A stretch of DNA of 61,567 nucleotides, filler included, from Collodictyon triciliatum (taxonomy: Eukaryota): NCBI GenBank assembly GCA_043381765.1. It is 4 parts of 4 records of this genome, joined end to end, with 100 filler letters (N's around TTAATTAATTAA, not from the genome) between each part and the next. Parts side by side here need not be neighbours in the genome. Positions count along the whole stretch, not along the records: positions 15,430 to 30,755 come from JBHJMP010001687.1; 3 more parts are not named here. One strand, given 5' to 3'. Numbering within the stretch: position 1 is the stretch's first letter; every line of letters starts with the position of its first letter. Below are positions 4,824 to 46,273 of the stretch, one piece after another. The notes under the pieces were generated by a model, which had not been told where the DNA came from, did not search any database, and saw only the letters and a list, made by a program, of their open reading frames with translations. A program made the position numbers and the translations under genes.

Positions 4824-4832
4824 CTTTTTATA
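4824..4832 (-). promoter_or_regulatory. Candidate TATA box (TATAAAAAG) of the cyclin gene
   Basis: A consensus TATA box on the minus strand within GC-rich sequence, about 175 bp upstream of the ATG. The transcription start is unknown. Confidence 0.3.
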
Positions 4833-5952: not shown

Positions 5953-10934
<4,982 letters not shown>

Positions 10935-12023: not shown

Positions 12024-12221
12024 AAAACAGCGGCATCCTAGTTGAGCGCACGGCAGGCAAATAGGGCGGGGCGTTTAGAATGGACGTGTGTGTTGGTTTA
12101 TTGGGTGTGCCGTGATAGATATTCATAGTGCAGGAACCATGGGTCCGCTCGGTATTGGCAGGGAGAAGAGAGGGAAATGTGACAGTGAGGCACACACGCC
12201 GCAAAGGGCCGGAGGAGAGAC

Positions 12222-13625: not shown

Positions 13626-13783
13626 TGTGCTACAATGATCGGTATTGAATGTTGGTTTATGTTGTTTTGAACAGGGGGCATTTGTCACTGTGCGGGTGAT
13701 GTAGAATAGTATCGTCCTCTGCGGGTCTCTACATAGCACGACTTTCTACGGCATGGCGAGTGAAAATTGAGTGGACTACCTCA

Positions 13784-13792
13784 CTATTTATA
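13784..13792 (-). promoter_or_regulatory. Candidate TATA box (TATAAATAG) of the Rh gene
   Basis: A consensus TATA box about 160 bp upstream of the ATG on the coding strand. Confidence 0.35.
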
Positions 13793-14259
13793 AACTCACT
13801 GTGTGGTCTGGCCACACCAACAACAACCAAGGTGTTTGTTATATCCGTTGTTCTGTATCTGGACGATTTTTCCACCAATGCGGCGATTTTGCGTCACACC
13901 TTGCAGACATTTTCTGTATTTGGTGTTTTTCTTTGACGCGTTGGTGGGCAGGAGCTGGTACCGAAATTGAATTTTTCAAAATATTGAACATTTGAAATTG
14001 TGTATAATTATTACGTCCTGCACAAATACTATATTATACAAATTAGATATATTAATATATTATAATTTAAGAATGATATCAATTAATATAATATATATGA
14101 TACAATATCATAACTCCCACAAATAGTTAAAACTTACTGTCCTTGTTGAGGCGCCTTGAGCGGCCTTTTCATTTCCCAAGACGCAACCAACGAAAGGGTG
14201 TCTGCAATAAATACAGACAGCATAGTAATAGATAGTTACCATCTGATTCTGCGGTAACT

Positions 14260-15122
14260 TTATTGAGGAGGTTCAAACTCCCATATTATGAGTCGGTCGT
14301 CATTAGCGGATGATACAATTACGTTTCCAGATAATGATAAAGCAGTCACCGGGAATTGATGCTCTTCAATCTTGCGTATGCATTGCCCGGACAAGATGTC
14401 CCATATTCGAATAACCCTGGGTGAAATAAGTGGGTGAGTAAGAGCCTTGGTACGATGCAGGCAATCAAACAAGTAGCGCTGATTAAAATAAGAATAGAAT
14501 AAAGATTAGGATGTAATGAAGGCAGTCGCCAACTTATCATATCCACCCGACACAAGCGTAGGCCCGGATACCCTGAGGGAAACAACAGGGCCTTCATGAC
14601 CTTGAAGGGTCCGAACTAGTTCACCACTTGATGTATCCCATATCTTGAGCAGCCCATCATCACCTCCACTTACCACAGATGGGCCCTAATGCACCATGAT
14701 TGTTGATAAGCCACGATGATGACTTGGGGCGAGATTCTGCAGTATCGAGTAACCTGAAACTGAAGGCTTCGGACAGCACCCTCGTGTCCGATGAGAGTTT
14801 TCTGTTGATGAGGAGTCGAGGATTTGATGTTCCATAAATAAATCATCCCATTTTCTAATCCAGTGGCGCAGTATTCACCCTATGTGAGATTTTATCTGTC
14901 ATGAATTATGTTCCTCACATCTAGACGCTGTTTTTTTTTAAATGAAGAATAAAGGAGGTCTAAAAAATAAATATAATTTTTTAAACAAGTGGATACCTGG
15001 GAGTCAAGAGATAGTATTCTTGAATTGCAGGGGTCGGTTGTCTTAACAACTTTCCATCCATGGGTTGGCTCATACTTCCATACTTTAGTAGTTTGGTCCC
15101 ACGAACTTGATATTAAAATATC
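14260..15122 (-). CDS. WD40-repeat protein, 3' exons (FBXW7/beta-TrCP-like repeat style)
   Basis: Exons read ILISSSWDQTTKVWK / CATGLENGMIYLWN..LIGHEGAVRSLQF / VVSGGDDGLLKIWD..LQGHEGPVVSL..LVSGGYDK / IRIWD..IVSSANDDRLIIWEF, ending in TAA at 14260. Confidence 0.9.
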
Positions 15123-15329: not shown

Positions 15330-15429
15330 NNNNNNNNNNNNNNNNNNNNNNNNNNNNNNNNNNNNNNNNNNNNTTAATTAATTAANNNNNNNNNNNNNNN
15401 NNNNNNNNNNNNNNNNNNNNNNNNNNNNN
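15330..15429. other. Artificial gap spacer N44-TTAATTAATTAA-N44
   Basis: The identical 100-bp spacer, with stops in all six frames, occurs three times in the window. Confidence 0.95.
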
Positions 15430-15599
15430 TTGTTTGTTTTTTTGTTTGTTTTTTTTTTTTTTTTTTTGTTTTTAAAATAAGGAAATGAAAGAAATTTGTA
15501 AATTAAACTTAGAGTTTTTGCTATAAAATCAAATGGCTAGATTAAATATTCATGGGCCAAGAAAGTCATTTTTTCTAGTTTTTTAGAACATCAAAATTT

Positions 15600-18175
15600 T
15601 AAAACACAAAATTGCTGTAATTTTCGCGATAGACAAACCTGTTGTTCATTCTGTGACAAGAGAGGACTTGGGCTTCTATTTCTCGATTGACCCAGACTAG
15701 AGTTCGAATGTGGCGTAGAGAGATGATTATGAGTATTTGGGATATTTCCTGTCGTTTGTGCGACGCGCTCATGCGAGCCTTCACTCGGAGAGCTCTTTTG
15801 CTCAGGCTTATCCTGAATGTGTTTGTGAATTAATCCCCCATTCGTATCGTTTGTGCAAGAAAGGAAGCATTTATGCAAATCTTGGCCTTTCATGTGAGGA
15901 AAAGAGCCTTGGCAGAGGATTAAAATACTATTGTGAAAACGGCAAAATGCATATTCCGATGGACATCCATCGATATCAATATCAAACAAAGAACATACTT
16001 CCGGTGTTGGTGTTTGTTTCTTTGATATGGGCACGGGCTTGGCAGTGTACTCGGGAGTGGGCGTTTGCTTTTTTGATATAGGGACAGGCTTTGCTGTCGA
16101 CTCCTGAGAGAACGATGCTATCTCTAATTGGTTTTGCTTATGGCTTGATGGTACTAAATTCCAGTATAAATTTTAATGATGGAATTAACATTCAAACTCA
16201 TCGACAACTAAGGTATACGAAAGGGGGATGGTCAAGTCAAACAAAAGGGGACAGGAAAATTCAAGCGATAAAATGAATAAACATCTTGGTCTTTTTTTTT
16301 CCTTTCTTTTTTTTACAAAGGATTCGGCAAATAGAAATTGAAATCGCGGTTTCATTCGAACAACTAGAAATGCAGCTACCTTCAGCCGAAGGCTCCTGCT
16401 CTGCCTTTTGATGAGAATGCGTGAGTCCTTTGAATGGCATTGACTTGAAAACACTTCCTCTTCGTCTTTGCGGCGCCTCCTCTTGGTTTCCAGTGCCACT
16501 TAGGCTTTTTAAATAATGAAAACGGAAAAACGTCGATGATAAGAACTTTGAACTTTAATCAGAGTAGAAATTATAAGAAGCTAACATTAAATAAGAGTGC
16601 CGGAAAAAAATATAGTGTTGATATTAAAGTTTTAAAAAATGACAGATAGTATATGCTTTATATTTGTATGCAGTATCAAAGAGCTTTCAAAAGGGATGGA
16701 TATAGGTGATTTCTCATATTAAACACGCCTCTTACGATTTATCTTTGTCTGATGTGCTGCGAACAGATGAGTACGCTGAATCCTGGCCTTGTTTTTCTGT
16801 TTTTGATGTTTCTGGTCTCGGAATTTCATATTGTGCTGTCACATCTTCCACGGCATTGGACTCGGCCTCTGCTTACAATATAAAAGACAGCTTTATGTAC
16901 AATAACAACGAAACCAAGATATGTGAACAAAAATACGTGATGGAAAATAAGAATGTAAGAATCTTTTCTATAAATGTTCAATATGGTCAAAAAAATCGAT
17001 TTATAGAATCAATTCATGTGTAACGAATTACCTCCCGATTCTTTTTTTGTCCACAGAAATCCATATTTTTTCTTTGCTTTGACTAGTATATGACCTCTCT
17101 TAATGTCGGTATAAAATAACATCCACACATATAGACTCTACCAACCCATAACATCGAATCTTCACTGTACTATCAAATGTCATACAGCTGAACGATTGAA
17201 TTAATGAGGACAGTATTCCGATTTTTTATATATAATACCTTTTGCCCAGTGAGACGTTTGCTTTGTATCCGACGCTGTTGTTTGTAAGTTTGCAGATTTG
17301 TTAGGAGATTCAACTATTTGAGCGTTTTGTATGGTTCCATCAACGGAGTGGCGATTGAAATCCCCGTGTTTATATTCTTCCTGTGCCTGTGTGATTACAT
17401 CGAAATTATGACAAACGTCAGTTCAAAAAAGTTTTTAAAAAAGAGAATAAATATGGACGCGATTTTAAAGTGAATATTTATTAAAAAATTTAAAAAAAAA
17501 AGGATATTGGTGATATAAAGTATTCATCAAAACCCACATACATGCACAATAAGTGTGGGACTGTTCACATTGCGCATGAGATTACGAGGGCCCGGAAGCT
17601 GTGCCTCAGGTAGCCTGCCAGAATAAATGGGCATTTGCAGCTGTTATTGGTTTTGCATTATAAAGAAATGTTCTGATTTGTTTTTGCTGGGACACACGAG
17701 TGTCTTTGGTCTCAGCATGTGAAGAGACCCAGCAGATCGTGGGGTGAAAGCAACAAACGTATCATCGTTGAAAGCTGCAAAAAGAAAAGGAAAGAAGAGA
17801 GATGGATATACATGGTTTAAAAGGTAGAGAGAAAAAGAAAACAAAAACATAAACAAAAACAAATACAAATACAAATACAAATACAAAAACAAAAACAAAA
17901 CAAAAACAAAAACAAAAACAAAAACAAAAACAAAAACAAAAACAAAAACAAAAACAAAAACAAAAGGCTGAGGTTGAGCAAAAGGGTGCTTTATAGAAGA
18001 AGAAAACGTTTAAACGGGTGAGGGGCGACTGAAAGGCAAACCTGGCGGCGTGCTGATCGATCGACTGCGTATTATGGCTCATTTCTTGAACTTCTTGCTC
18101 TTGGAACTCGTGTGTTCTTTGCTCAGAGGCAACCTTTCTGCGCTGCGCTGGGCTCAGATTGCTGTTCCTGTTCAA
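15600..18175 (-). CDS. Low-complexity S/T/P/Q-rich exons, probably the N-terminal part of the WD40 gene
   Basis: Open minus-strand segments bounded by splice sites (MSHNTQSIDQ.., HTQAQEEYKH..SHWAK, SLYVWMLFYTDIKRG, QDKPEQKSSPSEG..). They lie on the same strand as the WD40 exons across the gap; the linkage is unproven. Confidence 0.4.
17840..17965. repeat. (CAAAAA)/(ACAAAT)n hexamer microsatellite
   Basis: Hexamer runs within an intron. Confidence 0.9.
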
Positions 18176-18724
18176 AAACTGCTGCGTTACTATTTCTGAT
18201 TCACTTGAAAGCCAATATTTTTTCCTCTAACTGCCTCCAACATCAATTGATGTAACTGATGGTACAAAAATCAATTAATGTCACACAAAAGCATTTATGA
18301 GTCTCAAAAATCACACACCAAAGGAAAAAATGATCATATATTATAGATTCCACAAACAAAAACCTAATGAAGGCACTTTCATTGAAAATAATGTAGTATT
18401 CGGTATGCAAGGTTGGAAACTGGTGATTTCTTTCCTTTCAATGGTGCAAGATTTAGGCGGTTGTAACCCGATCAGCCGAGAGCTTCTTCCTTTCCTTCGA
18501 TCGCTCCTTCTTGGCTCGAGCACAAGAAAGAGAGTACAGAGCCTCAGCCTGCCACACTCACTTGTTGCTGCCTTAACACTTTTCTCAGCCTCTTTGGTAA
18601 CATACTGATTTCTGCCAAGCAGGTGCAAATGCTGAGAACTCGGGCTTTGGTCTCATCCCTTCTTTTGGTTTGTGGCTCATAGCAGATTTGTTCCGCATCC
18701 ACATATCTTTCGCCTTCGTTTTTA

Positions 18725-20561
18725 TGGGCTGTGCCTCCATATTTTTGCACTCAAGTTGTCGAATTGACTCACAGAGATCTACCAAAGCATACACAACCTC
18801 GTCACTAGCTGATGATGTGATTCCAAGGCTGTACTACCTTCATTCCGGCCCAGGTGAGACGCCAACCAAGCGCAATATCCCAAGCTCACCTTATTTCACT
18901 TCGTTCAGACTCTAAATGAAAAATCGACTTGCCACGGGAACATCATTATGAATTTACTTCTCAAAGTAAGGATTTTCATTAACTTGACGATGTTTTTTTT
19001 TTCTGCCAAAGGCTCGGTGCTGTCTGCTGGTATTCCAAAAGGTGCCCTATTCATTGTTTCCAACAGCGTCTGCAATGTGCTCGGAACGTCCCCAAATATT
19101 TCTAAGAGATGGACCTATTTTTCAAACACCCGCGAAGCATTCTTTAGGAGAACATCTGGGGCCCCGTTCTTCTTTGACCAGGTAGTTTAACCCAAGGAGA
19201 TTATCCATCTCTCTGTGGTTATTTCTATCCGAACATCAACCTGGACAAGGGTGTAAATGTGCTCGTTATTTTCAACAAATATACGCTGCCTTTTTTTTTT
19301 TGAGGAGCGGATTATGCTCAATCCTTCTTATGACCTATGCTTCTCATATTTATACAGTTCCTCTAATCGAGAGTTTTTTTAGTACTCCACCAGTGGCTCA
19401 GTCGGCGATTTGATTCTCTCTTCAAAAGAGTCAGATGATGTGGCAATCACCGAAATAGACTATGGGATTGATCTTTTTTTGTCGAGTGGGTCGTCGCTTC
19501 TCTGTGCAGGCGGCGATATCGGCCTAACGACATACTGGAAAACACCGACAATGAAACCCTCTCTTCGTGTCTCTGGGCGTGGGTCTGTCGCTTTTCGGTC
19601 TCCAGGTCGAATTGTGAAAATGTTTCTTGAGCCTGGAGAATCCTACTACATCAATCTAAAGTACTCTCATACATCCATATCTAGTTCACAGTATATGATG
19701 TATTTGTCCTTTTTTTTTTTTTTAATGAAGAAATTAAAGTGGACCTATGATAAAGTTGCATGAAAAGGTCGCTATTTTACATAGAAAATATATTTCATTG
19801 CCAGCATCCTTTTGAATCCATGAGTTTTTTTACCGATCTTTTTCTGATAATATTTGCAGATATTTGCTCGCTTACGAATCTACCATAACGTTCCAAGGAA
19901 AGAATGAAGATCTAAATTTTTCAAAATACAGTCCAAAAACAGATATGAAAATAAAGGTACGCTCCACTTTCACAAGTACGGATTTCTCTGTAACCTATTT
20001 TTTTCTTTTCTTCATTTACCTTTTTTTCTTTCTTTCTTCTGATTGCTATTACACCCCTCCTTCTCTCTATCCAAGCGATTCATCCATTATATATACACTT
20101 CAGACACAAGAAGACCAAACAGAAATCACAATTAAGCAGGAGAATGCTGAAGTTAGTACTTTGGAGGAGTATGTAACAAAATTCTTGATTTCCCCTTTGA
20201 ATATAATACAATACTAGTATATTTGCCATCATCGAGAGAAAAGAATGAAACCATTATAATGCTTCACTTTTTTTCTAAATTTGTAATGTATTTTTTTTTT
20301 TAGTAATGTCCAGATGTCTTTGAAGGAACGTTTCCAATCTTACTTCAACATTTACACAAAGGTATAATTCATAACTCGTTGTTTTCTATTGTTTCGCCCT
20401 ATTCAAAGGATTCCAAAGGGGTAGATAGCGAAATAACTGCTTTATTTTATCAGGTTACCGTCCAACGCAGCAACCCGACTGGTGCCACTATCTATCTGCA
20501 TGGAGCAACATCCAGCAACATTTTGAAAACTCTACTCCCTTCGTATGGAAATATACTTTGA
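18725..20561 (+). CDS. AIM24 (DUF124/TRAP-like) family protein, multi-exon; start uncertain
   Basis: LFLSSGSSLLCAGGDI..LRVSGRGSVAFRSPGRIVKMFLEPGESYYIN/ YLLAYESTI and the final PTGATIYLH match the AIM24 pattern (L++SG.G.+.+.S.G.+....L.PGE.Y++D..HL+AW..; GPG.+Y+Q). Confidence 0.7.
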
Positions 20562-21841
20562 CTTCCAAACATTTTTTTTGTTTCAACTTGTAAAGTATCA
20601 TGATTATGCTTCGTAATTACATATCCACCCATGTGAACAAAAATACTAAAAACGACAACCATGCGAACTGCCTTCGGCAAACACCAGATCGGTGGTAATA
20701 AGAATATATACATGCATGTGTGTATCGAAAAACGAATGTATGCCACATCTGCTGGATTGCAGCAGATTGAAGAGCGAGTGCTCATGGAAACTCACCATCG
20801 ACCCATTTGACAGGACCCGAAAATACCCGAGTACATCCCACCGCGTCTTGAAATATTGGAGAACCAAAATCGCACCAACCCAAATCCGCGGCCACAAACT
20901 GAAGCGACGCAACTCAAGCAATCATAACGACGTGGTTGATTTTTCTCCCGCGGTTGGCATAGCAAGCCAAAGAGTATAGGAGCGCATTTATTATGGATGT
21001 GACTACCATCACGAGATTTCAATAAATGGCTCGTATTATTCGTGTGGTGGAATTTTCAATTCCTAATCGTGTTGATTGGGTATTCGTTTATTCTTTGTTT
21101 GTCGGAACTGATCGGTAGTATCGGTGTGAAAGTTTGATGGCATTGCCTATTCATCGATGCGCTTTTTTTCTTAATTCTTTTTTTTCTTCACGGCAGAAAG
21201 GGATTCTTTTCCAATCATCACATTTCTGATTGAAGGGGCCACAAGTAATCAACCAATTGGCTCATTCATTCATGGCTTATTGTTTCCTTCCATTTTGATA
21301 AATGGGCAAGGGGCTTGGATGTAAACAAGTGTGTAAAAACAACCTGCCATTAATGCACTGCCCAGAGCAAACACAGACAACATTGCATCAACGAAGCAGA
21401 AGCACCTTTCGGCCTCTGAATGAACAGTCCGAGCAACCAAAAAATATAATACATCAATCATACCATATTCAGAATCAATGAAGTCTAAATGTGGAAATTA
21501 TAACTACGCCTTTTATAAAGAACTTTTTTTTTCCGTCTTCCTGTTCTCACCGTTTCGTTTCTACACACAAAGCGTTTTCTCAAGCAGCTGTCGGACCGAA
21601 GGCGGCTGAACTCATCCGAAAAGCAGCAAGACATGCCATACCGCGCCATGAAAGTCTTGTGCCTTGATGAGAAAACTATTTCCGCCCTTTTCTTCTTCTT
21701 TTTTAATGGTTAACCGACAATATCTTTCTTTAATTCCTTGTTTTTTTTTATTTAATACTTCTTAAAAAAAAAAAAAAAAACTAGCAGTGAAGCAGAGACG
21801 AAACAAAGAAAAGAGATAAAAGAAAAGTAAGAGAGAGAGAT

Positions 21842-23397
21842 ATGGCAGTAGACGGAAAAGAGGCGAAAAGACACATGGAAGAATCACCCGACAGTGTCTC
21901 CAAGAAGGCTGAGTTTGAAGCGGGTGTGCGTCTTCCAGTGAGACTCGGCCACGCCCGGAACGGAGTCGCGGGTGATGATGCAAACACATCCGAGCCTGTT
22001 TGTTCGCCGCATGGTTGGCACGAGTTGAGCCCTGTTCTGTGGAAAGCAGTGCCGCCGGCCATGAGGCGAGGTCTTTGTGCTGCGGTTTTATGTCTTCCCT
22101 TTGTATCATGTTGCATAAAATCCTTTTAGCTAATACTTGTTTCAAATCCTCTCTTTTTTTTTTTTTTTTTTTTGTTAGTATGTGCCCCATGTATATTTTT
22201 AAGAGGCTTGTTTCATACTATAATGTTTACATTTTTGCACATTTAACCAGCCCGATGCCTTGTGAAATAATCATATTTATACATCTGTATTTATTTTATT
22301 TTATTTTATTTTATTAACGTATTAACTTACTAACTCATTAACTTATTTATTCTGTAATGGAATCTATCAATTCATTTTTCTTCCTTATTTTTCAATTTTT
22401 TTTTCACTGTTTTTTTTTTTGCAGGAATTCCAAGTGATATTTTGTCTCCTGCGTGGCAGCTACTGATCTTTGGGGACGGCTCTCCTACGCACAACTTCAA
22501 CATCATCACACGCGATCCGATATACGTAGAAGTCTTGGAAATGAGCCTGAATGATGGTCTGTATTTTTTTCCTTTTTTTCTTCTTTTTTCTTTATATTTC
22601 AAGATCGCTGTAATCAAAATATCTACTTCTAAACGACATCAAAAGGCCATATGAATCAACGCAATAAATACAATCGAAATCAATTGTCTATATGTGTGTT
22701 ATTCGCCTGACTTTGCGCTGTGCGAAACGGACTCAAGACTTTGAGGCTGGGTTGGACGATGTTTTGCGGCTCATACCCACGCCACGAACCAGACGCCAAG
22801 TAAAACATAATCACGGCGCAGCACGAATCCCGCTTTTCTTTCGTTTGGCTCATTGTCGCCACTCTTTAATCATTTACTTGCTTTTCCATATCTCAGGTGT
22901 GGCTCACAGCTTCAAAGACAAACGAGAGAGTGATGTATGCCACATCCTGGTGGTCAACGTCACTGATGAACACGATGATGCCCGACCAGTCGAAGCCCAT
23001 CTGGAGCAACCTGCAGGGACTAGACCTTTTTCGAGATATGCAGGTTGGACTGCATACAATAATATGCGATACTACAAGGAAGAAAGAAAAAGAAAGAAAG
23101 AAAAAAATCGAGTGAACAATATTTTTGTGTTCTATTATCAATTGTTTAGAAAGCTTGAGTTCGCAAATACCGTGAAACTGTTTGTAGGGAGTCTTTTGTG
23201 GACACAACAAGCATCTTGAGGAGGGATTTGGCGCACAAGGCCCGTTTTGGGGACGCTACTATTTTTTCTGGCACCGAGGAGAGCCGCTGTGCTTCATCTA
23301 CGAGGTTTTTTCCAACAGCCTCAGCAAGTATCTCGGGCCTCAGCGCCAGGGTGACGTGTCGTTGGAGTGCTTCCTTGCCACACAGAGCAAGATATAA
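21842..23397 (+). CDS. ycf21: Ycf21/DUF98 chorismate pyruvate-lyase-like protein, 5 exons (21842-22070, 22425-22556, 22738-22799, 22897-23043, 23188-23397)
   Basis: LSPAWQLLIFGDGSPT / PTPRTRRQ / VWL..VMYATSWW..KPIWSNL..LFRDMQ / GPFWGRYYFFWHRGEPLCFIYEVFS closely follows the cyanobacterial Ycf21 motifs. All exons join in phase. Confidence 0.88.
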
Positions 23398-23826
23398 ATG
23401 TAACTGAAAATACCAAACAGTTGCAGGATTGAGACATCCGGCGTATGAGAGGCACCGCATGATGGGGGTGTGTGTGCATATCTTTCGTTTTGGGGGGATT
23501 GAAAGAATGAAAGTGGCAGAATGGATAGAGATGCAACCACCAATTCAAGAGTAAGATAATAATGCAACACAAAGCTTTTAGAGTTGAGCTCTTTTGTCCC
23601 GCTTCAGGACCTTGGAAGGATTTCGATACTAACAGAGCGAAAGGAAGCAAAATAAAAAAAAATAAAGAGTACCATCTACACCCTTTATTTTATTAATTTT
23701 CTTATCGGAATATATTGGGGTCAATATTTGTTTTCTATCTCTGATTTGTATCATTTATGACGTGTTTATTAGTCAACTAGGTCCGCGGCTTAGGACAAAA
23801 CACGTGTCAAATTGTCCATGAAGGAA

Positions 23827-26800
23827 TCAAGGAGCAACTGACGTTCTTTCAGAGTCATAGGACTTTTGTTGCTTGCGCTTGACGGAGTAGAAAACTATGC
23901 CAGCAATAAACGCGGCTCCGACAATCACGGACACAACGATTCCTGCCACAGCGCCATCGCTCAACCCGTCGTCCTTATCATTTCCCCCACTTCCATGCTC
24001 CGTGGTTTCCTCCTGCAAGGGACCAAAGTTTGGCGCTTGGCCGGCACTGTTTGCGGCCTTCACTTGGTACGAGAAGGCGACATTGTTCCTGAAAAGATAA
24101 GAACAAAGTGTAGACAAGAAAGCAGGTGAAGAAAAAAACGATAAAAATGGAAAGACATGGATATATGGTGGCAAAGATATTATCATATACACTTGAATTT
24201 ATTACGTGGCAGTAGAATCGGTGTAGGATGTTGTTGCAACTATCTTGTCGCCGTCTTCGAACGGAGGTGAGCGTCTTAGAATGTAGTATACGTCTTCCCC
24301 CGCAATGCCTATTCAATTTGAAGAAACCAATCACATTCATATTCATATACTTCCTTGTTTATAACGACTATTGAAGAAGGACAGTAGAAGAGAAGGGTCA
24401 TTGATGGCGGCGTAGTTTTTAGAAATAATATTTCTCAAGCTAAATGTCTGGTTGAAGTTGCGCATATGATTTATTATTTTTGTTCTTCTTGGATTCTTAT
24501 TATCATCGAATACTATAGAACATTTCACCAGAGCTCAGTGGCTGAGTCCAAGTGACAGATACATCAGTGGTTGAAACTCTTTTCACAACTGGTGCTATAA
24601 CGATGTGCGCTGGGAGAGCTTCATTTTATGCAGTATTGAAAAAAAATTAATAGCATTAGCAGGATAGATAACCGCCCATTCTTTTAAACCAAACCAGGAA
24701 ACAGGTTCTGTTAACTAATAATTTTCTGTGTGTTCTGTTGTTATGTTTTATTTTGTTATGAATAGATGTGATTTTTACATGAGTCATCCCACCCTGAGTA
24801 GTAAAGGTCGTAGTAGCATCGAATCCTGGCAATCTGTAGAATTGCAGTTAGTTTTTACGGTTGATGTTAAAATGGCATTGTGGAGAAAACATACTAGTGT
24901 GAAAACGGTTATATTTTCTTTATGTTAAAAAATGAAAAAATGATACTTGTTGAGGTGAGAACGTTTGGTTGTAGCAGTCTCCAACAGGGTCAGAGTATCC
25001 CATGATGTTTTCGACTGGCGTAAATTGCCACGGCTCCTCTTCACAATCAGCACATGACAAATCCCACCCCTATGAAAAAAAATTAATAATTTCCAGGATG
25101 GCATAGATTTATGTGCGCGACCGGAGACATCAAGAAGGTTAAAATTTTTGATTTTCTCTATTCCACGAGTATGTCTCTGTAAATCAGAAAAGGGATATAC
25201 AGTGGTATCATCACACTGTGGAGGGTCTGCACAAGTAAAAGTCAACGAAGTCGGGCGCGTATCTGCACAAAGGTCGCCTTTCAGCAACGTACCAGGTTTA
25301 CCGACAGGATATTGTGCCTCGTAGCATGGGTCATTGCAGCCTTATGGTGAATAATAATAATAAAAAAAAAACATTTAATCACACAATCACTGCCATACAA
25401 AGGAATGAATCAGCAAAGGGCACTTCTATGGTGATGAAAGAAAGTAGAAACCCTTTCTCAAGTTCACTGACACCGTGGAATGTATGCCATAACCCGAATG
25501 AATGACCAGCCTATCAGATTTTTAAAAGGTTTCGTTTTATTGCATGTTCAAAGGTATTGCGAATTTCAAATAAGGTTACCACACGGATTAAGATGATTTT
25601 TTTTTTAAAAAAAATGCATCGGAAAGGGGGCATTGTTGTGTAAATATGGTATATTGTAATTTTTTTCTTTACTTCGTGTGGAGTTACTGTGCCCCTGTAA
25701 TAAGATAGTGAATCATCACCCCAGTAATCATCGCCAAGTAAAAAACCTCCATAAAGAGAGCTACCAAAATCAATAGTCCACGGGAAAACCGATATGCCCA
25801 AAAGATTTTCACCTTTTTGTTATGATAATTTTTACATTGATTCAACCCCGCCTAATTGACGATTTACAAATAAGTTACTTTCCACTGAACCAACGTAAAC
25901 ATAGAAGCTTTCGGAGAAGTTCGATTTTGCCAAAAGGCGTATTTCGGTGATGTCAGCAAAACCTACGGCAGAAGCGATTAATCAAACAAACTGCGCGCAA
26001 CAGGCTTAATAATTGTTGTGTGTCACACATTTCTAACAATAAACAATTGATGAAGGGAAATATGGAAGACATTGCACTGATTTAACCCAGAGATAGGATG
26101 GAGTGGATAATAAAAATAAAAGATGAACTTCGCTGAAGAAGTGGGCGACGATGGTCAAAACAGGTTCCTTGCGTCGGGTCAATGCAGCAATCCCCTCCAT
26201 CATAATTTTTCTGAGATATATTGCATATTTCTTGACAAACGCCGTCCCCAATCATATCCTATGAAATGTTAGTGTATGATCTATAATATTTCAATGCGTT
26301 TCAATTCATGGAATGATGTCGAGCATAAATGAAATATTCAGTCTAGAAAAAGGTAGATTTTTTAGAATCATATTTACCTCTGTGCATTCCTCATAGTTTA
26401 AGCAAATACACTCACAATATTCTGCCTCTGACCTCCCACTTAAAATATTTTCTCTAGAGCAATCTGGGTTGCAATTCAAAGGGTCGGGACAGAACCAATC
26501 TCCTCCATCGTAGCCATTGAAGGCGTGAAGGCATTCGTATTCAGGAATTCCTTGGTGGAGTTGAAATCATTTAGGAGGAAAGAAAATTGTTGCGGTAGAT
26601 AGTAAACTGTAACATTGTCGAAGTCCTTTTTCGTGCATTATTTTTTTTCATTACCGTTTCCAACGTTTTCTATTAGGCAGTCATAAGGTGTGATTTCACC
26701 ATACCACAGATAGGTGGAATTTATAAGTGTTTCTTCATACACAAAACTGATTCCACTGTTTTTGAAGTATGTTTCCATGACGTCTTTCTGGAACGCCGTC

Positions 26801-27538
26801 TTTTCTGGTGTGACGAGTGGATCGGAAAAGTCATCCTTGGCGACGGAAAACACCTTGACACCTGCAAATACGATAAGTCTCACACATGAATTCTGTTTTA
26901 TGCTCATTATCATTATAGATTAAATAGTTATGTATGTGTTTTGTTTGACACTAGCCATACTATATCAAGATACAAAATTCGTAATGAACAGCAAACGTGC
27001 AGTGACCGGCTCTATAAGACGATTTCTTAAAGCACTGTCGTAGCCGAGGGTATAGTTTGGGTCATCGCAAATTGTTGTCAGACACACATTAGACTCATCA
27101 AATCGACTTTGACCAACGCGCTGGCCAGAGCGAACGGTACCTTTTGGTTTAAATTAACTTAAAATAATGGTTATAGTTATATATAGTGAGAGGAATAGCA
27201 CAATATTTTTTAGCTGATTTTGCGTTAGGGTTAGGACACTCCCGCGACCATGGAAACTTTCTTGATATTTCGACTCTGAATAGCTGATTACCCTTCGAGG
27301 TGGCTGTGCCACACACCGCTCGTGAATTCCTTGCAGAAGCGCGTTCGATGCCGTTTGGTCCCAGTGGGGCGTGGAGATGTTCAGCACGAGGCCAACCATG
27401 GTCGAAGTTGGCTTTTCTCCCAGGTCGTTCGCGCAGTGCCTGTGAGAGAGTTCGCGGTTTGCCTGCTGTGATCGATCCAACCAGCAAAAGCCCCGCCAGG
27501 AGGAGAATAAATGCTGGGCGAATACCGGGTCTTGTCAT
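23827..27538 (-). CDS. Pappalysin-like M43 metzincin metalloprotease: signal peptide, LNR-like modules, FN3-like domain, C-terminal TM helix
   Basis: Signal peptide MTRPGIRPAFILLLAGLLLVGSITA. The spliced zinc motif HE/AGHSFGLWHTFHGVSE fits HExxHxxGxxH. Also GDLCADTRPT, the Met-turn NIMGYS, LNR-like GDGVCQEICN..YDGGDCC, FN3-like VSVTWTQP..YQVKAANSAG, and TM AVAGIVVSVIVGAAFIAGIVFY followed by KRK. Confidence 0.88.
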
Positions 27539-28389
27539 CCTGCAAGCTCGATCTTGAAGGATTCGTTCAAGTGAGCTGAAGCTACAACGAAATGCTATTT
27601 TATTTTGTCTGATGTATTTATTTGTAAATAATCTTTCCTTTAATTGGTTTGCGTTATGACGATCCCTGCAAAGCTCATTTTTTTTCCCTTTGATTTTCCT
27701 TCTTTTTTTTTCTGTGAATGAACTCGTTTATCCCGAATGTCTACTAGTCTATTACGCTTTGTTTTGCGCTGCCTGCACTTTTGTTAGATCCAGACACAAC
27801 ATTGACGCCCCGTCTTTTCCAGTTTTCCGATGTCGCGCGCAATGGCACTTGGGTTATCAATCGGCTGCTTGCCTACTACTCATGGCTGGAGCTCTCTACT
27901 GGATAACTGAGCGCCTTGCTTATCTTTCTTGTGGTGTTGTGTATTTTGCTACGACAGAATATCGCATGCCAAGGATTTGACAGGTGTTTTCTTCACAACA
28001 AAGTTTTCTTGTGGCGCGTGCGCAACTATACACAAATGGAAATATTCATACCTGGAAAATAATTATTATAATATAAATTTTATTTATTCATCCTCTTTTT
28101 ATTCCTTACTAGTATACAATTCAATATTATGATTGAATATAACTCAATAACATGCACGTTGTTGCGTAGATGTAATTCTACCGTGCGTCCGAGCATTCCT
28201 GCTGTCACAACGCGTATGCTGTCCAACGTCCCAATCTCCCACCCAAGTCTTGTCCATTGTTTTCTTATTTTTTTCCTTTTGTCCTTGACTTTTTTCGTCT
28301 CAAGAGTCTTGAAAAACAACCTGCAGGTGCTGCTGCGCTGCGTGAATAGAGGCCAAGACACAAGAAGAAAGAGACAAAAGACACAAGCG

Positions 28390-28691
28390 ATGCCCAAGGA
28401 GAGACAGAGCGTCACAGTTCGCGTCCCCGCCACCACTGCAAACATGGGCCCGGGTTTCGACTCGATCGGTGAGCTTTCTTGACCTTTCACCAAGTATATC
28501 GCCCATAAAACCCTTCTCTCATTTTCCTTCGTCCTGGTCTCTTGCACTGCGCCTCATCCCCTACATTTTCTTATTCGTGGCGCTTTCATATGACAAATTG
28601 CGCGCTCTAGGGATGGCTCTGGACATCTGGAATGAACTTACTCTGAGCCGCGCAGAGTCGTTTTCCATCACCATCCAAGGAGAAGGGGCAG
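28390..28691 (+). CDS. thrB: Homoserine kinase (GHMP family), first two exons only (28390-28468, 28611-28691)
   Basis: SVTVRVPATTANMGPGFDSIG/MALDIWNEL is the diagnostic homoserine kinase N-terminus. The remaining exons are not in the visible sequence. Confidence 0.9.
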
Positions 28692-28866
28692 GTTGGTTCT
28701 GTGTTGCCAACGCATATACGATATAAGGAAGAATGTTCTTTCAAATAGATGATTAGAGGCGATTTATATCTCTTCATCACTTTCAATTTTTTTTTTTTGT
28801 TAATAATAATTTTCTGGGATTCTCACATATTTCACGCATGCCTTATCTATAATATTATAAAGTGCG

Positions 28867-28993
28867 AAGAAAAAAGAAAAAAGAAAAAAGAAAAAAGAAA
28901 AAAGAAAAAAGAAAAAAGAAAAAAGAAAAAAGAAAAAAGAAAAAAGAAAAAAGAAAAAAGAAAAATAAAAGAAAAAAGAAAAATAAAAGAAAA
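28867..28993. repeat. (GAAAAA)n-type purine tract
   Basis: Intronic G/A run immediately before the integrase island. Confidence 0.93.
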
Positions 28994-29053
28994 TGATAAA
29001 ACTATCATATTTGCGAAATTGTTGTAAACACCGTGTCGAGAGTGAAACACCAG

Positions 29054-29095
29054 TGATATTTATTTATTCTATATATCTAGAATAAATAAATATCA
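29054..29095. repeat. Inverted repeat with perfect 18-bp arms and a 6-nt spacer
   Basis: TGATATTTATTTATTCTA (29054-29071), tatatc, TAGAATAAATAAATATCA (29078-29095). Confidence 0.95.
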
Positions 29096-29157
29096 GTTTA
29101 TTTCGTGCTTTATTGTTTTATGCGTTTTTTTACCTATTATTATATCTAATTCAATAT

Positions 29158-30348
29158 ATGGATGACGAAATGAAAATATTGGACAAGTATTACAATGCAC
29201 CCAAGCATACCAATTCAGTTGCCGGACTCTGGGCGCTCGTAAAAGAATTTGGAATTAAAAAAAAGACTGTCGAGGAATTTCTCAAACAACAACCCGACTA
29301 CCAAACTCTGCAAGCAAGAAAGTCAGAACGCAAACAAGCAACCATGATGCGATTCAAACCAGGGTACATCCAGATAGACACGATTGATGTCGACGGCCTG
29401 GAATCAGAAGACGCAAAATATATTCTGACTTGTGTCGATGTATTCACGCGAAAGCTGTGGGCCTATCCACTGCTGGCAAATTCCAGCAAAGAAGTTTCAA
29501 AGCAATTAGAAAAGTTTATCAAGGAATATAAACTAATCACAACCATCCAATCAGACAATGGTAAAGAGTTTCAGGGTGAGGTCCCCAAACTTTTAGAAAC
29601 TAATAATATCAAGAGTGTGAAAAGTTCTCCAGGCAATCCAACAACCAACGCCTTTGTCGAAAGAGCCAATGGCACAATCAAGCGCGCACTCTACGGCTAT
29701 CTGCAAAAGACTGGCAACGACCCAATCCCCCATCTCAGAGAATTCACAGACTCTATTAATCTTGTCAAGAATGCAACAACAAATGTTGTGCCTGATGTTG
29801 CGGTTCTGCCAAAGTACCAGGAGCAAATTATCGAGAACCAAAAAAAATATGCAGGCAAAAAAAATCAGAATGCCCGCCAGGACAAACCATTCCAACCTGG
29901 AGACAAAGTCAGAATACTTCTCGAGAAGACTGACCTGCCTGTGAATGTAAAACAAAAACTGAAAACTTCAAAGGGGTACTTGCCCCGTTGGAGTAATGAA
30001 ATATATACAGTCATCAAAGAAAGCAAACCAACCAGCGAGTGGGTTGTGCCCTATGTCAAAGTTGAATCAACCAATGCCAAGATCGCCAAAACTAATTTCA
30101 AGCGCTCTGACTTGCTTCTGATTGACGACACAACCACCAAAGGCAAAACACACAAACCCAAAAAACAACTCATCAAAGAATTTGCAGAGGAAGACGACTT
30201 GAATGAATTTTTAGAAACAGCGGAACCTCGTAAAATGAAAGGGGCCTCTGGTTTAGAGGAGAAAGATTTATTCAGGTTCAATGAGACAACGAAAGCAGCT
30301 CAAGCTGCGTCTCGCGCAGAACGTGCGGCCAGAAGAAATAAATCTTAG
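29158..30348 (+). CDS. Retroviral-type (rve) DDE integrase of the Polinton/virophage style, intronless, 396 aa
   Basis: Catalytic QIDTID, IQSDNGKEF and FVERANGTIK (D-x34-E), plus YILTCVDVFTRKLWAYPL. The N-terminus LDKYY..P..V.EFL.QQ..YQ lacks an HHCC finger. The C-terminus has FQPGDKVRI..KGYLPRWSNEIYTV. Confidence 0.93.
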   Translation: MDDEMKILDKYYNAPKHTNSVAGLWALVKEFGIKKKTVEEFLKQQPDYQTLQARKSERKQATMMRFKPGYIQIDTIDVDGLESEDAKYILTCVDVFTRKLWAYPLLANSSKEVSKQLEKFIKEYKLITTIQSDNGKEFQGEVPKLLETNNIKSVKSSPGNPTTNAFVERANGTIKRALYGYLQKTGNDPIPHLREFTDSINLVKNATTNVVPDVAVLPKYQEQIIENQKKYAGKKNQNARQDKPFQPGDKVRILLEKTDLPVNVKQKLKTSKGYLPRWSNEIYTVIKESKPTSEWVVPYVKVESTNAKIAKTNFKRSDLLLIDDTTTKGKTHKPKKQLIKEFAEEDDLNEFLETAEPRKMKGASGLEEKDLFRFNETTKAAQAASRAERAARRNKS

Positions 30349-30755
30349 GCCGTCTTCTTTGGTCTGCCTCTTTTTTTTTTGGCCGGAGCCTCATCCTCGG
30401 GTTCACTTGGGTACTCAGCTTCCGCCACGGCCGCCTTGACGGCATCTTTGTTGACGCTTATCTTCTCAGCCTCCTTGATTTCGTCCTTGAGTATATTGGC
30501 CTTGCGCTTGCGTACCTCGGTCTTTGTCTCATTGGCTTTCTCGATTCCTTTTTTCAAAATCTCTTTCGAGTCTTTCTTCGACTTGCAAAAGAAATAAACA
30601 TCTGATTCACTGACAGACCACTTGGATTTAAAACTGCGCAGCCCAATTACATTTTCCTTTGTGCCGCGAATTTCTTTTTTCTCTTCGTCTGGGGTAAATG
30701 TAACATATCCCCCTTTCACCAGCTGCGCCTTTGTTTCAGAGTCACGCGATTGATA
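30345..30755 (-). CDS. Lys/Glu-rich intronless ORF with a C-terminal AT-hook; 5' end lost in gap
   Basis: Open from near the gap edge to TAA at 30345-30347 and ends PAKKKRGRPKKTA. Its stop overlaps the integrase stop. Confidence 0.7.
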   Translation of the reverse strand, partial: YQSRDSETKAQLVKGGYVTFTPDEEKKEIRGTKENVIGLRSFKSKWSVSESDVYFFCKSKKDSKEILKKGIEKANETKTEVRKRKANILKDEIKEAEKISVNKDAVKAAVAEAEYPSEPEDEAPAKKKRGRPKKTA

Positions 30756-30855
30756 NNNNNNNNNNNNNNNNNNNNNNNNNNNNNNNNNNNNNNNNNNNNT
30801 TAATTAATTAANNNNNNNNNNNNNNNNNNNNNNNNNNNNNNNNNNNNNNNNNNNN
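30756..30855. other. Artificial gap spacer N44-TTAATTAATTAA-N44
   Basis: Same spacer as at 15330. It presumably hides the rest of the element and the 3' ends of two convergent genes. Confidence 0.95.
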
Positions 30856-45625: not shown

Positions 45626-46173
45626 TATTCTTTCTATTCTATTTCTATTATATTTCTATTTCTATTCTATTTCTATTCTATTTCTATTCTTTCTATTCCT
45701 CCTACTCTATTTCATTCTATTCTTTCTATTCCTTCTATTCCTTCTATTCCTTCTATTCTTTCTACTCTTTCTATTCTTTCTATTCTTTCTATTCTTTCTA
45801 TTCTTTCTACTCTTTCTACTCTTTCTATTCTTTCTATTCTTTCTACTCTTTCTATTCTTTCTATTCTTTCTATTCTTTCTACTCTTTCTACTCTTTCTAC
45901 TCTTTCTACTCTTTCTACTCTTTCTACTCTTTCTACTCTTTCTACTCTTTCTACTCTTTCTATTCTTTCTATTCTTTCTATTCTTTCTATTCTTTCTATT
46001 CTTTCTATTCTTTCTATTCTTTCTATTCTTTCTATTCTTTCTATTCTTTCTATTCTTTCTATTCTTTCTATTCTTTCTATTCTTTCTACTCTTTCTATTC
46101 TTTCTATTCTTTCTATTCTTTCTATTCTTTCTACTCTTTCTACTCTTTCTATTCTTTCTATTCTTTCTACTCT
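45626..46173. repeat. (TTCTATTCT/TTCTACTCT)n 9-bp tandem array abutting a gap
   Basis: More than 500 bp of 9-mer variants; source of the FYS and SIL repeat ORFs. Confidence 0.96.
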
Positions 46174-46273
46174 NNNNNNNNNNNNNNNNNNNNNNNNNNN
46201 NNNNNNNNNNNNNNNNNTTAATTAATTAANNNNNNNNNNNNNNNNNNNNNNNNNNNNNNNNNNNNNNNNNNNN
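46174..46273. other. Artificial gap spacer N44-TTAATTAATTAA-N44
   Basis: Third copy of the spacer. The missing CLPTM1 3' half implies the real gap is far larger than 100 bp. Confidence 0.95.

What the first reader, a model, noticed from the sequence alone, without database searches (positions are those of the whole stretch)
28994..30755. Intact virus-like integrase island (Polinton/PLV/endogenous virophage candidate) apparently inside a housekeeping-gene intron
Seen: a stop-free 396-aa rve integrase with all three catalytic residues, no HHCC finger, no recognisable chromodomain and no adjacent RT or gag. It is intronless in a genome where most genes are heavily spliced, and it follows the homoserine kinase exon-2 donor. 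Established: this integrase style (YY..P N-terminus, F..GD.VRI..KGY.P.WS.EI C-terminus) is typical of Polintons/Mavericks and related integrating dsDNA viruses such as mavirus-type virophages. Inference: this is one end of a recent, probably multicopy endogenous virus whose repetitiveness broke the assembly. It may be a new lineage and, if virophage-like, an anti-giant-virus defence element.
Basis: partly seen in the sequence, partly recalled or inferred. Interest (0 to 1): 0.82.

Follow-up and report, generated by a model that had tools for sequence, protein, structure and literature searches.

The report
End of an integrated virus-like element
This is one end of a small virus-like mobile DNA element with an intact integrase gene, sitting in a microbial eukaryote's genome assembly; near-identical copies circulate in fresh waters, but such elements are already known to be common in protists.

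Summary
Window 29158-30348 (+) encodes an intact 396-aa rve integrase with a D74/D133/E168 triad, no zinc finger, no chromodomain and no RT or gag. It lies downstream of homoserine kinase exons 1-2.

The "gap" is not a gap. It is a 100-nt synthetic spacer, one of three that join unrelated, size-sorted ~15.3-kb contigs. The island therefore sits at a contig end, and only its left junction is seen.

A 91%-identical metagenome contig continues into a conserved 173-178-aa AT-hook protein and a 779-aa D5-like primase-helicase.

Contigs from four freshwater or aquaculture metagenomes (four studies) match 29054-30755 at 99-100%. At 29054 they continue as a mirror image rather than into this host's flank. 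This points to an extrachromosomal form with a palindromic end.

Both genes are under purifying selection. The integrase's more distant relatives sit in Maverick/Polinton-type and virophage/PLV-like elements, not in Pol polyproteins.

Most likely this is the integrase-replicase end module of a recently active polinton-like or virophage-like element. No capsid gene could be reached, so "virus" remains inferred. The anti-giant-virus defence idea is untested. It is a new member of a known kind, of moderate interest.

The parts
28390..28691 (+). Host homoserine kinase exon 1 (about 28390-28468), intron 1 and exon 2 (about 28611-28691). This is host context, not part of the element.
   Evidence: PDB homoserine kinases, residues 2-22 and then 31-60. 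GT and AG splice sites were read.
28868..28993 (.). (GAAAAA)n microsatellite in the host intron, 60 nt left of the element end. Similar arrays lie in two other contigs of the window (about 130-425 and 58745-59400).
28994..29053 (.). 60-nt unique spacer between the microsatellite and the element end. It is probably host DNA. The last bases before 29054 would be one copy of any target-site duplication.
   Evidence: At 29054 the contigs of runs X2 and X3 continue with letters unlike this spacer (table 7).
29054..29095 (.). 42-nt terminal palindrome (arms of 21 nt, one mismatched pair, outer bases TG...CA). This is the inferred left terminus of the integrated copy.
   Evidence: (I3, 95% complementary), (contig breaks at 29054 and 29078, mirrored loose ends; k=31 simulation).
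29121..29131 (+). Upstream motif TGCGTTTKTTT, ending 27 nt before the integrase ATG. It is a candidate promoter element shared with the p173 genes of relatives.
29158..30348 (+). Integrase gene, 396 aa. It has an N-terminal helical (HTH-like) domain, an rve core with D74/D133/E168, a small C-terminal beta-barrel and a basic helical tail.
   Evidence: Purifying selection.
30345..30755 (-). 3' 136 codons plus stop of a conserved 173-178-aa gene ('p173'), convergent with the integrase gene and overlapping it by 4 nt. It is cut by the contig end, so about 42 N-terminal codons are missing. The C-terminus carries an AT-hook-like GRPKK.
   Evidence: 79% identical to L002 p173; 134 of 136 residues identical to P0063, 178 aa.
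30756..30855 (.). Synthetic spacer (N44 + TTAATTAATTAA + N44) joining unrelated contigs. It is not a sequencing gap inside a locus.
   Evidence: three identical spacers, with block lengths of 15,326 and 15,318 nt.

Best explanation
The island is the left-terminal 1.7 kb of an integrated copy of a small double-stranded-DNA mobile element of the polinton-like virus / virophage kind.

Shown:
- The element begins at a 42-nt palindrome (29054-29095).
- It carries an intact Maverick/Polinton-type rve integrase, followed by a convergent small AT-hook protein.
- In a 91%-identical environmental relative, a 779-aa D5-like primase-helicase comes next.
- Both window genes are under purifying selection.
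- Essentially the same DNA is present in fresh waters, where its end is joined to a mirror image of itself and not to this host's flank.

Inferred:
- The whole element is about 13-17 kb and encodes capsid and packaging genes further on.
- It replicates with its primase-helicase as an extrachromosomal molecule with palindromic (hairpin or head-to-head) ends.
- Its integrase inserts the unfolded TG...CA end into host chromosomes, here into intron 2 of homoserine kinase.
- The host assembly broke inside it because of repetition or polymorphism.
For: The gene is an integrase with an intact catalytic triad.
- rve domain and DD35E triad.

The gene order is conserved.
- Integrase followed by convergent p173 is seen in 4 of 4 loci whose integrase is at least 43% identical (window, L002, L003, L004).
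- L002 continues into a primase-helicase (DUF5906 1.3e-14, PHROG DNA primase 1.3e-17, PDB primase 2.7e-7).
- Integrase and helicase homologues have the same longest-contig lengths (17,215, 9,411 and 4,655 nt). I infer that they share contigs.

Both genes are under purifying selection.
- Window versus L002: dN/dS is 0.11 for the integrase and 0.31 for p173.
- Of 20 variant sites in the integrase seen in metagenome contigs, 16 are synonymous.

The same DNA occurs in the environment.
- Contigs of 4 of 4 laid runs, from 4 studies, match 29054/29078-30755 with 0-9 differences.
- All four runs have records that run past 30755. One X2 contig goes on for 331 nt.

The environmental form has a mirrored end.
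- In X2 a 66-nt contig, and in X3 a 63-nt contig, carry the palindrome flanked on the left by the reverse complement of 29096-29107.
- The long contigs of X1, X2 and X3 all start at 29078.
- A k=31 graph simulation reproduces exactly a 66-nt centre unitig and a stem starting at 29078 under the mirror model. It does not do so for a plain linear end or for the window's own junction.

The integrase belongs with Maverick/Polinton and virophage/PLV-like elements.
- Distant relatives at 24-33% identity sit in Maverick/Polinton-like loci. 18 of 19 loci of 7 kb or more carry an ATPase homologous to one with weak, below-cut-off Pfam matches to IVa2/A32 packaging ATPases in L057.
- L066 carries pPolB (6.8e-50).
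- L082 (IMG/VR) has a chromodomain integrase plus Pox_A32 (4.6e-8).
- L001 (IMG/VR) has a D5-like primase-helicase (weak, below-cut-off Pfam matches), an integrase and collagen-repeat proteins.
- The best viral fold match is a 'MELD virus' integrase (1.6e-16). The mavirus integrase is rank 8.

Composition differs from two of three host ORFs.
- Integrase GC3 is 0.44, against 0.84 and 0.77 for two host ORFs.

A shared upstream motif exists.
- TGCGTTTKTTT occurs once each in L002, L003 and L004, always 27-40 nt upstream of p173. It also lies 27 nt upstream of the window integrase. It is absent from the other 96 loci.

Published context (passages read):
- Protist endogenous PLVs and virophages are 15-30 kb, combine pPolB or primase-helicase with an rve or tyrosine integrase, differ in GC from the host and break short-read assemblies (PMC10120064).
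- Integrase plus replicase next to the terminal repeat is described as an 'end module' (PMC11296320).
Against: - No capsid, penton, packaging ATPase or protease gene was seen for this family. Only about 5.2 kb of its gene order is known (window plus L002).
- The family is absent from IMG/VR at better than about 34% identity for the integrase and 28% for the helicase.
- Only one end is available, so TIRs and a target-site duplication are untested.
- The left junction lies 60 nt from a 125-nt microsatellite, so the exact host locus could be an assembly join.
- A third host ORF has GC3 of 0.51, close to the element's.
- The mirror-end inference rests on very short contigs, and on k=31 for the run contigs, which is my recollection of how they were built.
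- The upstream motif rests on four sites, and one further copy lies at window 1408.
Confidence: 0.6

Rival explanations
1. A capsid-less integrating replicon made only of integrase, primase-helicase and accessory genes. It would be a transposon, a plasmid-like element or a satellite of a virus (transpoviron- or Tlr1-like in lifestyle).
For: Only integrase, p173 and primase-helicase are documented. No member is in IMG/VR. Most contigs holding family proteins are short.
Against: The longest contigs with family proteins reach 12.9-17.2 kb, which leaves 8-12 kb unaccounted for. The more distant integrase relatives lie in elements with packaging ATPases. The same element at 99-100% identity in waters sampled by four studies fits a transmissible particle.
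Confidence: 0.2
2. The element is not integrated at this locus. It would be a contaminant or episome from the culture, or a copy from elsewhere in the genome, joined to the homoserine kinase contig through the microsatellite or the palindrome.
For: The junction lies 60 nt from a 125-nt microsatellite and at a palindrome. The contig ends 1.7 kb later. In the metagenomes the end is joined to a mirror image and not to this flank. The assembly has gaps elsewhere (N runs at 55742-56323 and 58837-58864).
Against: The 60 nt between the microsatellite and the palindrome are unique and unlike what the metagenome contigs carry there. A join inside the repeat would therefore still place the element next to a microsatellite type that recurs in this genome's other contigs. 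There are no N runs inside 15430-30755.
Confidence: 0.12
3. A solo or domesticated integrase gene of the host, or the integrase of an LTR or Ginger-type transposon.
For: The rve fold is shared with retroviral integrases. No Ginger reference could be compared.
Against: There is no RT, gag or LTR nearby. Among the query and 69 nearest representatives, the nine Pfam families reported include no RT, RNase H or integrase zinc-finger family, and listed lengths are 203-655 aa. Linkage to p173 and a primase-helicase is conserved in environmental contigs. Near-identity to environmental DNA that is joined to a mirror image rather than this host flank does not fit a fixed host gene.
Confidence: 0.04

Closest known systems
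Endogenous polinton-like viruses and virophage-like elements of protists (Bellas et al. 2023, PMC10120064; cryptophyte PLVs, PMC12220804; passages read)
   Same: Intronless genes. An rve integrase together with a primase-helicase replicase. Lower GC than two of three host ORFs tested. The assembly breaks inside the element. Close relatives occur in aquatic metagenomes.
   Different: No capsid or packaging genes are documented here. The end is a 42-nt palindrome, with the integrase ATG only 104 nt inside it, rather than a TIR of several hundred bp. No close relative is in IMG/VR.
Maverick/Polinton integrases (c-integrase type), as in loci L057, L066 and L082
   Same: 27% identity over residues 8-285 with L057 (E 8e-21). 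This covers the N-terminal helical domain, the DDE core and the GD.VR...KGYL..WS.EI barrel.
   Different: There is no chromodomain (Chromo is present in L057, L082 and 15 of 70 sequences in A4). Residues 300-396 form a different C-terminal tail. The neighbouring replicase is a primase-helicase rather than pPolB.
Mavirus / Cafeteria EMALE integrase and 'end module' (PMC11296320, passages read)
   Same: An rve integrase lies next to the replicase at the genome end. The mavirus integrase is a rank-8 fold match (1.3e-13).
   Different: The mavirus module uses pPolB and long TIRs. Sequence identity in the fold alignment is only 18%.
PLVs of Tyrannomonas regina that carry a primase-helicase plus a non-canonical rve integrase (PMC12747079, passages read)
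   Same: An rve-type integrase is combined with a primase-helicase fusion, in a freshwater protist, with GC lower than the host's.
   Different: Those elements also encode a tyrosine recombinase and have terminal direct repeats.
Hairpin or palindromic termini of parvoviruses and poxviruses (recalled; the poxvirus paper PMC8956199 was seen only in a search listing)
   Same: It works alike only. There is a terminal palindrome with an asymmetric centre, and mirror-image junctions appear in sequence data.
   Different: There is no homology. The replication proteins are different. The hairpin itself has not been shown.

Membership tests
rve (retroviral-type DDE) integrase superfamily | rve catalytic core with D, D(35)E | tested here: met
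   Pfam rve at 1.6e-12, above the cut-off. D74, D133 and E168 are invariant in 70 sequences. PDB integrase cores match at E down to 1.7e-5.
Maverick/Polinton-type stand-alone integrase | Stand-alone protein (not part of Pol) whose N-terminal domain and C-terminal barrel are homologous to integrases encoded in Maverick/Polinton loci | tested here: met
   (alignment of residues 8-285 with L057). (context of the relatives). (no RT, RNase H or zinc-finger family among the nine families reported for 70 sequences).
Maverick/Polinton-type stand-alone integrase | C-terminal chromodomain (present in many members) | tested here: not met
   No Chromo match at E up to 1. 15 of 70 sequences in A4 have one.
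Polinton/Maverick sensu stricto | [quoted passage not shown] | tested here: inconclusive
   It is not in the 1.7 kb of the window. The 91%-identical L002 carries a primase-helicase next to the integrase module. The rest of the element was not seen.
Polinton/Maverick sensu stricto | Terminal inverted repeats and a 5-6-bp target-site duplication | not testable with these tools
   Only one end lies in the window, and no genome is held.
Polinton-like viruses | Double-jelly-roll major capsid protein, minor capsid protein and packaging ATPase | not testable with these tools
   The contig ends at 30755 and L002 ends in the helicase.
Polinton-like viruses | Replicase (pPolB or primase-helicase) plus an integration enzyme in a 14-40-kb element | tested here: inconclusive
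   The integrase is in the window and the primase-helicase is in L002. Size is only hinted at by the longest contigs, 12.9-17.2 kb.
Virophages (Maveriviricetes) | Four core genes: MCP, penton, ATPase and cysteine protease; dependence on a giant virus | not testable with these tools
   None of these genes is within reach. The shared upstream motif is only a hint of virus-style promoters.
LTR retrotransposon / retrovirus | Integrase as part of Pol with RT and RNase H, plus gag, LTRs and an HHCC finger | tested here: not met
   There is no Cys in residues 1-68. No direct repeats flank the gene.
Ginger DNA transposons | Grouping with Ginger transposases in a phylogeny | not tested
   No Ginger reference sequence was obtainable from the tools.

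The most novel reading that the evidence does not exclude
This is a previously uncatalogued lineage of small freshwater eukaryotic DNA viruses or elements. Its linear genome would end in a short hairpin-forming palindrome and replicate through mirror-image (head-to-head) intermediates using a D5-like primase-helicase. It would nevertheless integrate into host chromosomes with a retroviral-type integrase acting on the unfolded TG...CA end. This combination of end structure and integration mode is not described for polinton-like viruses or virophages in the papers I could search.
Probability: 0.2. Interest if true: 0.8.

Novelty: new member of a known kind. Interest (0 to 1): 0.45.

Why it matters
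Integrated polinton-like viruses and virophages are now recognised as a large, mostly unannotated fraction of protist genomes, and as possible modulators of giant-virus infection.

This case adds a small clade that virus catalogues miss. It has nine 50%-identity representatives at E <= 1e-30 among 1.84 billion, and none in IMG/VR above about 34% identity. It also ties a sequenced host directly to DNA that is 99-100% identical in natural fresh waters, which is rare host-linkage information for such elements.

If the mirror-image end is real, it would open the question of how primase-helicase PLVs replicate their ends.

For annotators, the practical lesson is that the N44-TTAATTAATTAA-N44 blocks are contig joiners. 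Features must not be read across them.

Tried and rejected
- **Whole-genome search for other copies:** impossible, because no genome is held.
- **Self-BLAST of 28701-30755 against the window:** only microsatellite hits and the palindrome, so there is no second copy. The terminal 18-mer occurs only in the two palindrome arms and in none of the 99 loci.
- **Rfam and tRNA scans of the window:** nothing.
- **INPHARED phages:** no match.
- **IMG/VR:** the integrase gives 1 locus at 30% and then 8 loci at no more than 34%. The helicase gives none and then 8 loci at no more than 28%.
- **GTDB genomes:** 2 loci at 26%.
- **Metagenome scan:** The 17.2-kb contig carrying P0001 was not returned.
- **Cluster look-up:** no accessions or informative names. 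The window's exact integrase is not in the collection.
- **p173 function:**
  - Pfam and PHROG gave only sub-threshold hits.
  - The Atlas's best score was 0.80, a level that shuffled proteins reach a third of the time.
  - The AlphaFold model (pLDDT 69.6) shows a small beta-barrel plus a long helix.
  - The best structural Z was 6.3, below the level that means more than a common arrangement.
- **Known giant-virus promoter words upstream of the genes:** TCTA lies at -13 of the window integrase only, and AAAATTGA once in L002. This is not consistent enough to use.
- **Host flank in the laid runs:** no contig of the four runs covered 26500-29053, apart from 35-nt pieces in exon 1 with unrelated ends.
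- **Contig depths:** centre 4.9 versus stem 8.55 in X2, and 4.1 versus 5.2 in X3. These fit a mirrored stem counted twice, but the tool warns that such depths are not copy numbers, so I give them no weight.
- **L004:** it shows no palindrome in the 187 nt upstream of its integrase.
- **Literature:** searches for hairpin-ended PLVs and for a TGCG-type promoter found nothing relevant in the listings.
- **Integrase tree:** no phylogeny with LTR, Ginger, Polinton and virophage references was built, for lack of reference sequences.
- **Supplements:** supplementary tables of the cited papers, which list PLV gene contents, could not be seen.
Full report
**What is in the window**

The frame 29113..30348 (+) is open. 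From the first ATG at 29158 it encodes 396 aa. Pfam finds rve (1.6e-12, 48 bits against a cut-off of 32.6) and rve_3 (5.2e-6), and nothing else at E up to 1. PDB chains of retroviral integrase cores match at E down to 1.7e-5.

D74, D133 and E168 are invariant in an alignment with 18 relatives and in one with 69 library representatives. D133 and E168 are 35 residues apart. Residues 1-68 contain no cysteine and a single histidine, so there is no HHCC finger (translation).

An AlphaFold model built on the 19-sequence alignment (mean pLDDT 78.8) has four parts:
- four N-terminal helices;
- the RNase-H-like core;
- a small C-terminal beta-barrel around the GDKVRI...KGYLPRWSNEIY segment;
- a basic helical tail.

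A convergent minus-strand ORF starts off the contig and stops at 30345-30347, overlapping the integrase stop codon by 4 nt.

**The surroundings**

Upstream lie two short coding exons.
- The first (about 28390-28468) hits six PDB sequences. All six are homoserine kinases, matched at their N-termini, with a best E of 1.8e-5.
- The second (about 28611-28691) continues collinearly at residues 31-60 of one homoserine kinase, but weakly (E 0.96).

After the exon-2 donor come, in order:
- about 175 nt of AT-rich sequence;
- a 125-nt (GAAAAA)n array (28868-28993);
- 60 unique nt (28994-29053);
- a 42-nt palindrome (29054-29095, arms of 21 nt, 95% complementary);
- the integrase ATG, 62 nt after the palindrome.

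**The gap is not a gap**

30756-30855 is N44 + TTAATTAATTAA + N44. The identical 100-nt block occurs at 15330-15429 and 46174-46273. The blocks of sequence between them are 15,326 and 15,318 nt long.

This is what a concatenation of unplaced contigs in order of decreasing size looks like. That such all-frame-stop spacers are used for this purpose is my recollection.

Three things follow.
- The island sits at the end of a 15.3-kb contig.
- DNA to the right of 30855 is unrelated.
- "Inside an intron" is supported only by the left junction.

No whole genome is held, so the remaining homoserine kinase exons and other copies of the element could not be sought.

**What the element continues into**

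A metagenome contig, L002 (4,321 nt), is 91% identical in DNA to 29258-30755. It continues as follows.
- First comes the full convergent gene of 173 aa, called p173 here, 79% identical in protein to the window fragment.
- Then comes a gene for a 779-aa protein with DUF5906 (1.3e-14), a weak PriCT_2 match, PHROG 'DNA primase' (1.3e-17) and a PDB primase match (2.7e-7). This is a D5-like primase-helicase.

The window's p173 fragment matches P0063, a 178-aa protein from run assemblies, at 134 of 136 residues. About 42 codons are therefore cut off by the contig end.

Integrase followed by convergent p173 is seen in all four loci whose integrase is at least 43% identical: the window, L002, L003 and L004.

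In the protein collection, integrase, p173 and helicase homologues have the same longest-contig lengths (17,215; 9,411; 4,655; 6,289; 5,865; 4,356; 2,287 nt). I take this to mean they share contigs, but that is an inference.

The 4,655-nt case pairs an 87%-identical integrase and a 75%-identical p173 with a helicase that is only 40% identical. This suggests that modules are exchanged.

**Selection and composition**

Between the window and L002, dN/dS is 0.11 for the integrase (358 codons) and 0.31 for p173. Among 20 variant sites in the integrase that metagenome contigs show, 16 are synonymous. In p173, 3 of 5 are synonymous. Both genes are therefore maintained by selection.

Integrase GC3 is 0.44. 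Two host ORFs in other contigs of the window have GC3 of 0.84 and 0.77: an ammonium-transporter exon (Pfam 6.3e-21) and a cyclin-like ORF. A third host ORF has 0.51, so the contrast is clear but not uniform.

**Environmental copies and the end of the element**

The run index found 20 runs from 14 studies that hold part of 26500-30755, none with more than 0.38 of its words. I laid four runs from four studies, labelled freshwater or aquaculture metagenomes.

In all four, contigs match 29054 or 29078 through 30755.
- X1: 0 differences in its main contigs.
- X2: 8 differences.
- X3: 9 differences.
- X5: 9 differences, with a hole in coverage.

All four runs have records that run past 30755. One X2 contig goes on for 331 nt. 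The window contig therefore stops inside the element.

At the left end:
- the long contigs of X1, X2 and X3 all begin at 29078;
- X2 has a 66-nt contig and X3 a 63-nt contig that carry the palindrome exactly as in the window;
- to the left of 29054, these continue with 12 and 9 letters that are the reverse complement of 29096-29107, not the window's flank.

I simulated a k=31 de Bruijn graph for three models.
- A mirror image (reverse complement of the right flank, then the palindrome, then the right flank) gives exactly a 66-nt centre unitig with 12 mirrored letters on each side, and a stem unitig that starts at 29078.
- A plain linear end at 29054 gives one unbroken unitig.
- The window's own junction also gives one unbroken unitig.

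The match to the nucleotide argues that, in these waters, the DNA left of the palindrome is the mirror of the DNA right of it. This would be expected for a hairpin-forming terminal palindrome, a head-to-head replicative junction or an inverted dimer.

That the run contigs were built with k=31 is my recollection. The tool text speaks only of 31-letter words.

The integrated copy keeps 21 nt beyond the symmetry axis and starts with TG. Its complementary strand therefore ends in CA-3', the dinucleotide that retroviral-type integrases use (recalled).

This part is inference from very short contigs. I rate it as likely that the mirrored form exists, and as open what it is.

**Family and relatives**

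The close family is small. There are 25 clusters at E <= 1e-3 in the 90%-identity collection, 17 of them at 41% identity or more. In the library of 1.84 billion 50%-identity representatives:
- 9 proteins reach E <= 1e-30;
- 1,052 reach E <= 1e-10;
- 6,556 reach E <= 1e-3.

The helicase and p173 searches returned 10 proteins each.

IMG/VR holds nothing closer than about 34% for the integrase and 28% for the helicase. The phage collection holds nothing.

The wider superfamily is informative. The metagenome scan found 328 stretches that encode relatives, and the best 80 were kept. Among the 19 kept loci of 7 kb or more (L005-L081):
- 18 carry a homologue of an ATPase with weak, below-cut-off Pfam matches in L057 (Adeno_IVa2 2e-4, Pox_A32 3e-3);
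- all 19 share two further ORFs;
- 13 share a 1,170-aa ORF that Pfam does not name.

Single loci add to this picture.
- L066 has a clear protein-primed polymerase (DNA_pol_B_2, 6.8e-50).
- The L057 integrase has a chromodomain (1.4e-8). It aligns with the window protein over residues 8-285, including the N-terminal domain and the GD.VRI...KGYL..WS.EI barrel (27% identity, 8e-21).
- The IMG/VR contig L082 has a chromodomain integrase and Pox_A32 (4.6e-8).
- L001 has a D5-like primase-helicase (Pfam DUF5906 and D5_N, both just below their cut-offs) next to a 30%-identical integrase and two collagen-repeat proteins.

Of the query plus 69 of the nearest representatives, 68 of 70 have rve and 15 of 70 have Chromo. 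None of the nine families reported at E <= 0.001 is an RT, RNase H or integrase zinc-finger family.

The best viral fold match is an integrase of a 'MELD virus' (1.6e-16). The mavirus integrase is rank 8, and retroviral Pol proteins fill the rest of the list.

It lacks their frequent chromodomain. A tree with Ginger and LTR references could not be built.

**A shared upstream motif**

TGCGTTTKTTT occurs once each in L002, L003 and L004, always on the coding strand 27-40 nt upstream of the p173 start. It also lies at 29121-29131, 27 nt upstream of the window integrase ATG.

It is absent from the other 96 loci held. It occurs once more in the window, at 1408. About 0.34 copies are expected by chance in the window, and 2 of 100 shuffles reached two.

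This is a candidate promoter common to the element's genes, in the manner of small viruses with uniform promoters. The evidence is four sites only.

**p173**

The protein has no family match. The model (pLDDT 69.6) shows a small beta-barrel, a helix of about 40 residues and a C-terminal GRPKK AT-hook-like tail. The best structural Z is 6.3, which is not meaningful.

A DNA-binding role is my guess from the AT hook.

**Reading**

The most economical account is that 29054-30755 is the integrase-replicase end module of an integrated, recently active element of the polinton-like virus / virophage kind.

The passages I read support this picture.
- Protist endogenous elements are 15-30 kb, combine pPolB or a primase-helicase with an rve or tyrosine integrase, differ in GC from the host, break short-read assemblies and have close relatives in aquatic viromes (PMC10120064; also PMC12220804).
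- Integrase plus replicase next to the terminal repeat is described as an end module subject to turnover (PMC11296320).
- rve together with a primase-helicase occurs in PLVs of a freshwater cryptomonad (PMC12747079).

What is missing is any capsid or packaging gene for this particular family. A capsid-less integrating replicon therefore stays a live rival (about 0.2).

An assembly join or contaminant is less likely (about 0.12). The 60 unique nt separate the element end from the microsatellite, and that microsatellite type recurs in this genome's other contigs. Only the source reads can settle this.

The anti-giant-virus defence idea was not tested.

**Verdict**

This is a new member of a known kind, of moderate interest.

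The most unusual lead is the mirror-image end. It would be new for this virus group if it reflects a hairpin or rolling-hairpin-like end. Two literature searches found no such report, but I read only listings and a few passages, and supplements were closed.

Noticed in passing
window 15330-15429, 30756-30855, 46174-46273: Three identical 100-nt spacers (N44 + TTAATTAATTAA + N44) separate blocks of 15,326 and 15,318 nt. The window is a chain of unplaced contigs in order of decreasing size, so no feature should be read across these blocks.
   Followed up: yes
window 12222-13259 (-): A 345-aa open frame with an ammonium transporter domain (Pfam 6.3e-21), GC 0.62 and GC3 0.84. Host exons are far more GC-rich than the AT-rich, microsatellite-laden non-coding DNA around them.
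   Followed up: partly
window about 130-425, 45700-46173, 58745-59400; N runs 55742-56323 and 58837-58864: Very long A/G-rich and other microsatellite arrays, several of them at contig ends, and internal N gaps. The assembly breaks at simple repeats.
   Followed up: no
L002 1-136 and 4224-4321: Both ends of this metagenome contig repeat internal pieces of its own integrase and helicase genes, fused in frame. These are probably assembly artefacts at short repeated words. The true helicase is 779 aa (P0026).
   Followed up: partly
proteins P0002, P0064, P0033 (all with a longest contig of 4,655 nt): An 87%-identical integrase and a 75%-identical p173 appear to share a contig with a helicase only 40% identical to L002's. 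This suggests exchange of the replicase module between lineages. That they share one contig is inferred from the equal lengths.
   Followed up: no
L001 (IMG/VR contig, 1-14278): A D5-like primase-helicase (844 aa), a 508-aa integrase 30% identical to the window's, and two collagen-repeat proteins stand in a row. This is a virophage- or PLV-like gene set with the same integrase-replicase pairing.
   Followed up: partly
window 28994-29007: The 60-nt spacer begins with TGATA....TATCA, the same outer 5-mers as the 42-nt terminal palindrome. It could be chance or a relic of an earlier end.
   Followed up: no
L004 40-249: In this 43%-identical relative, a 69-aa lysine-rich ORF lies upstream of the integrase start and overlaps it. 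The integrase is therefore not the terminal gene in every member.
   Followed up: no
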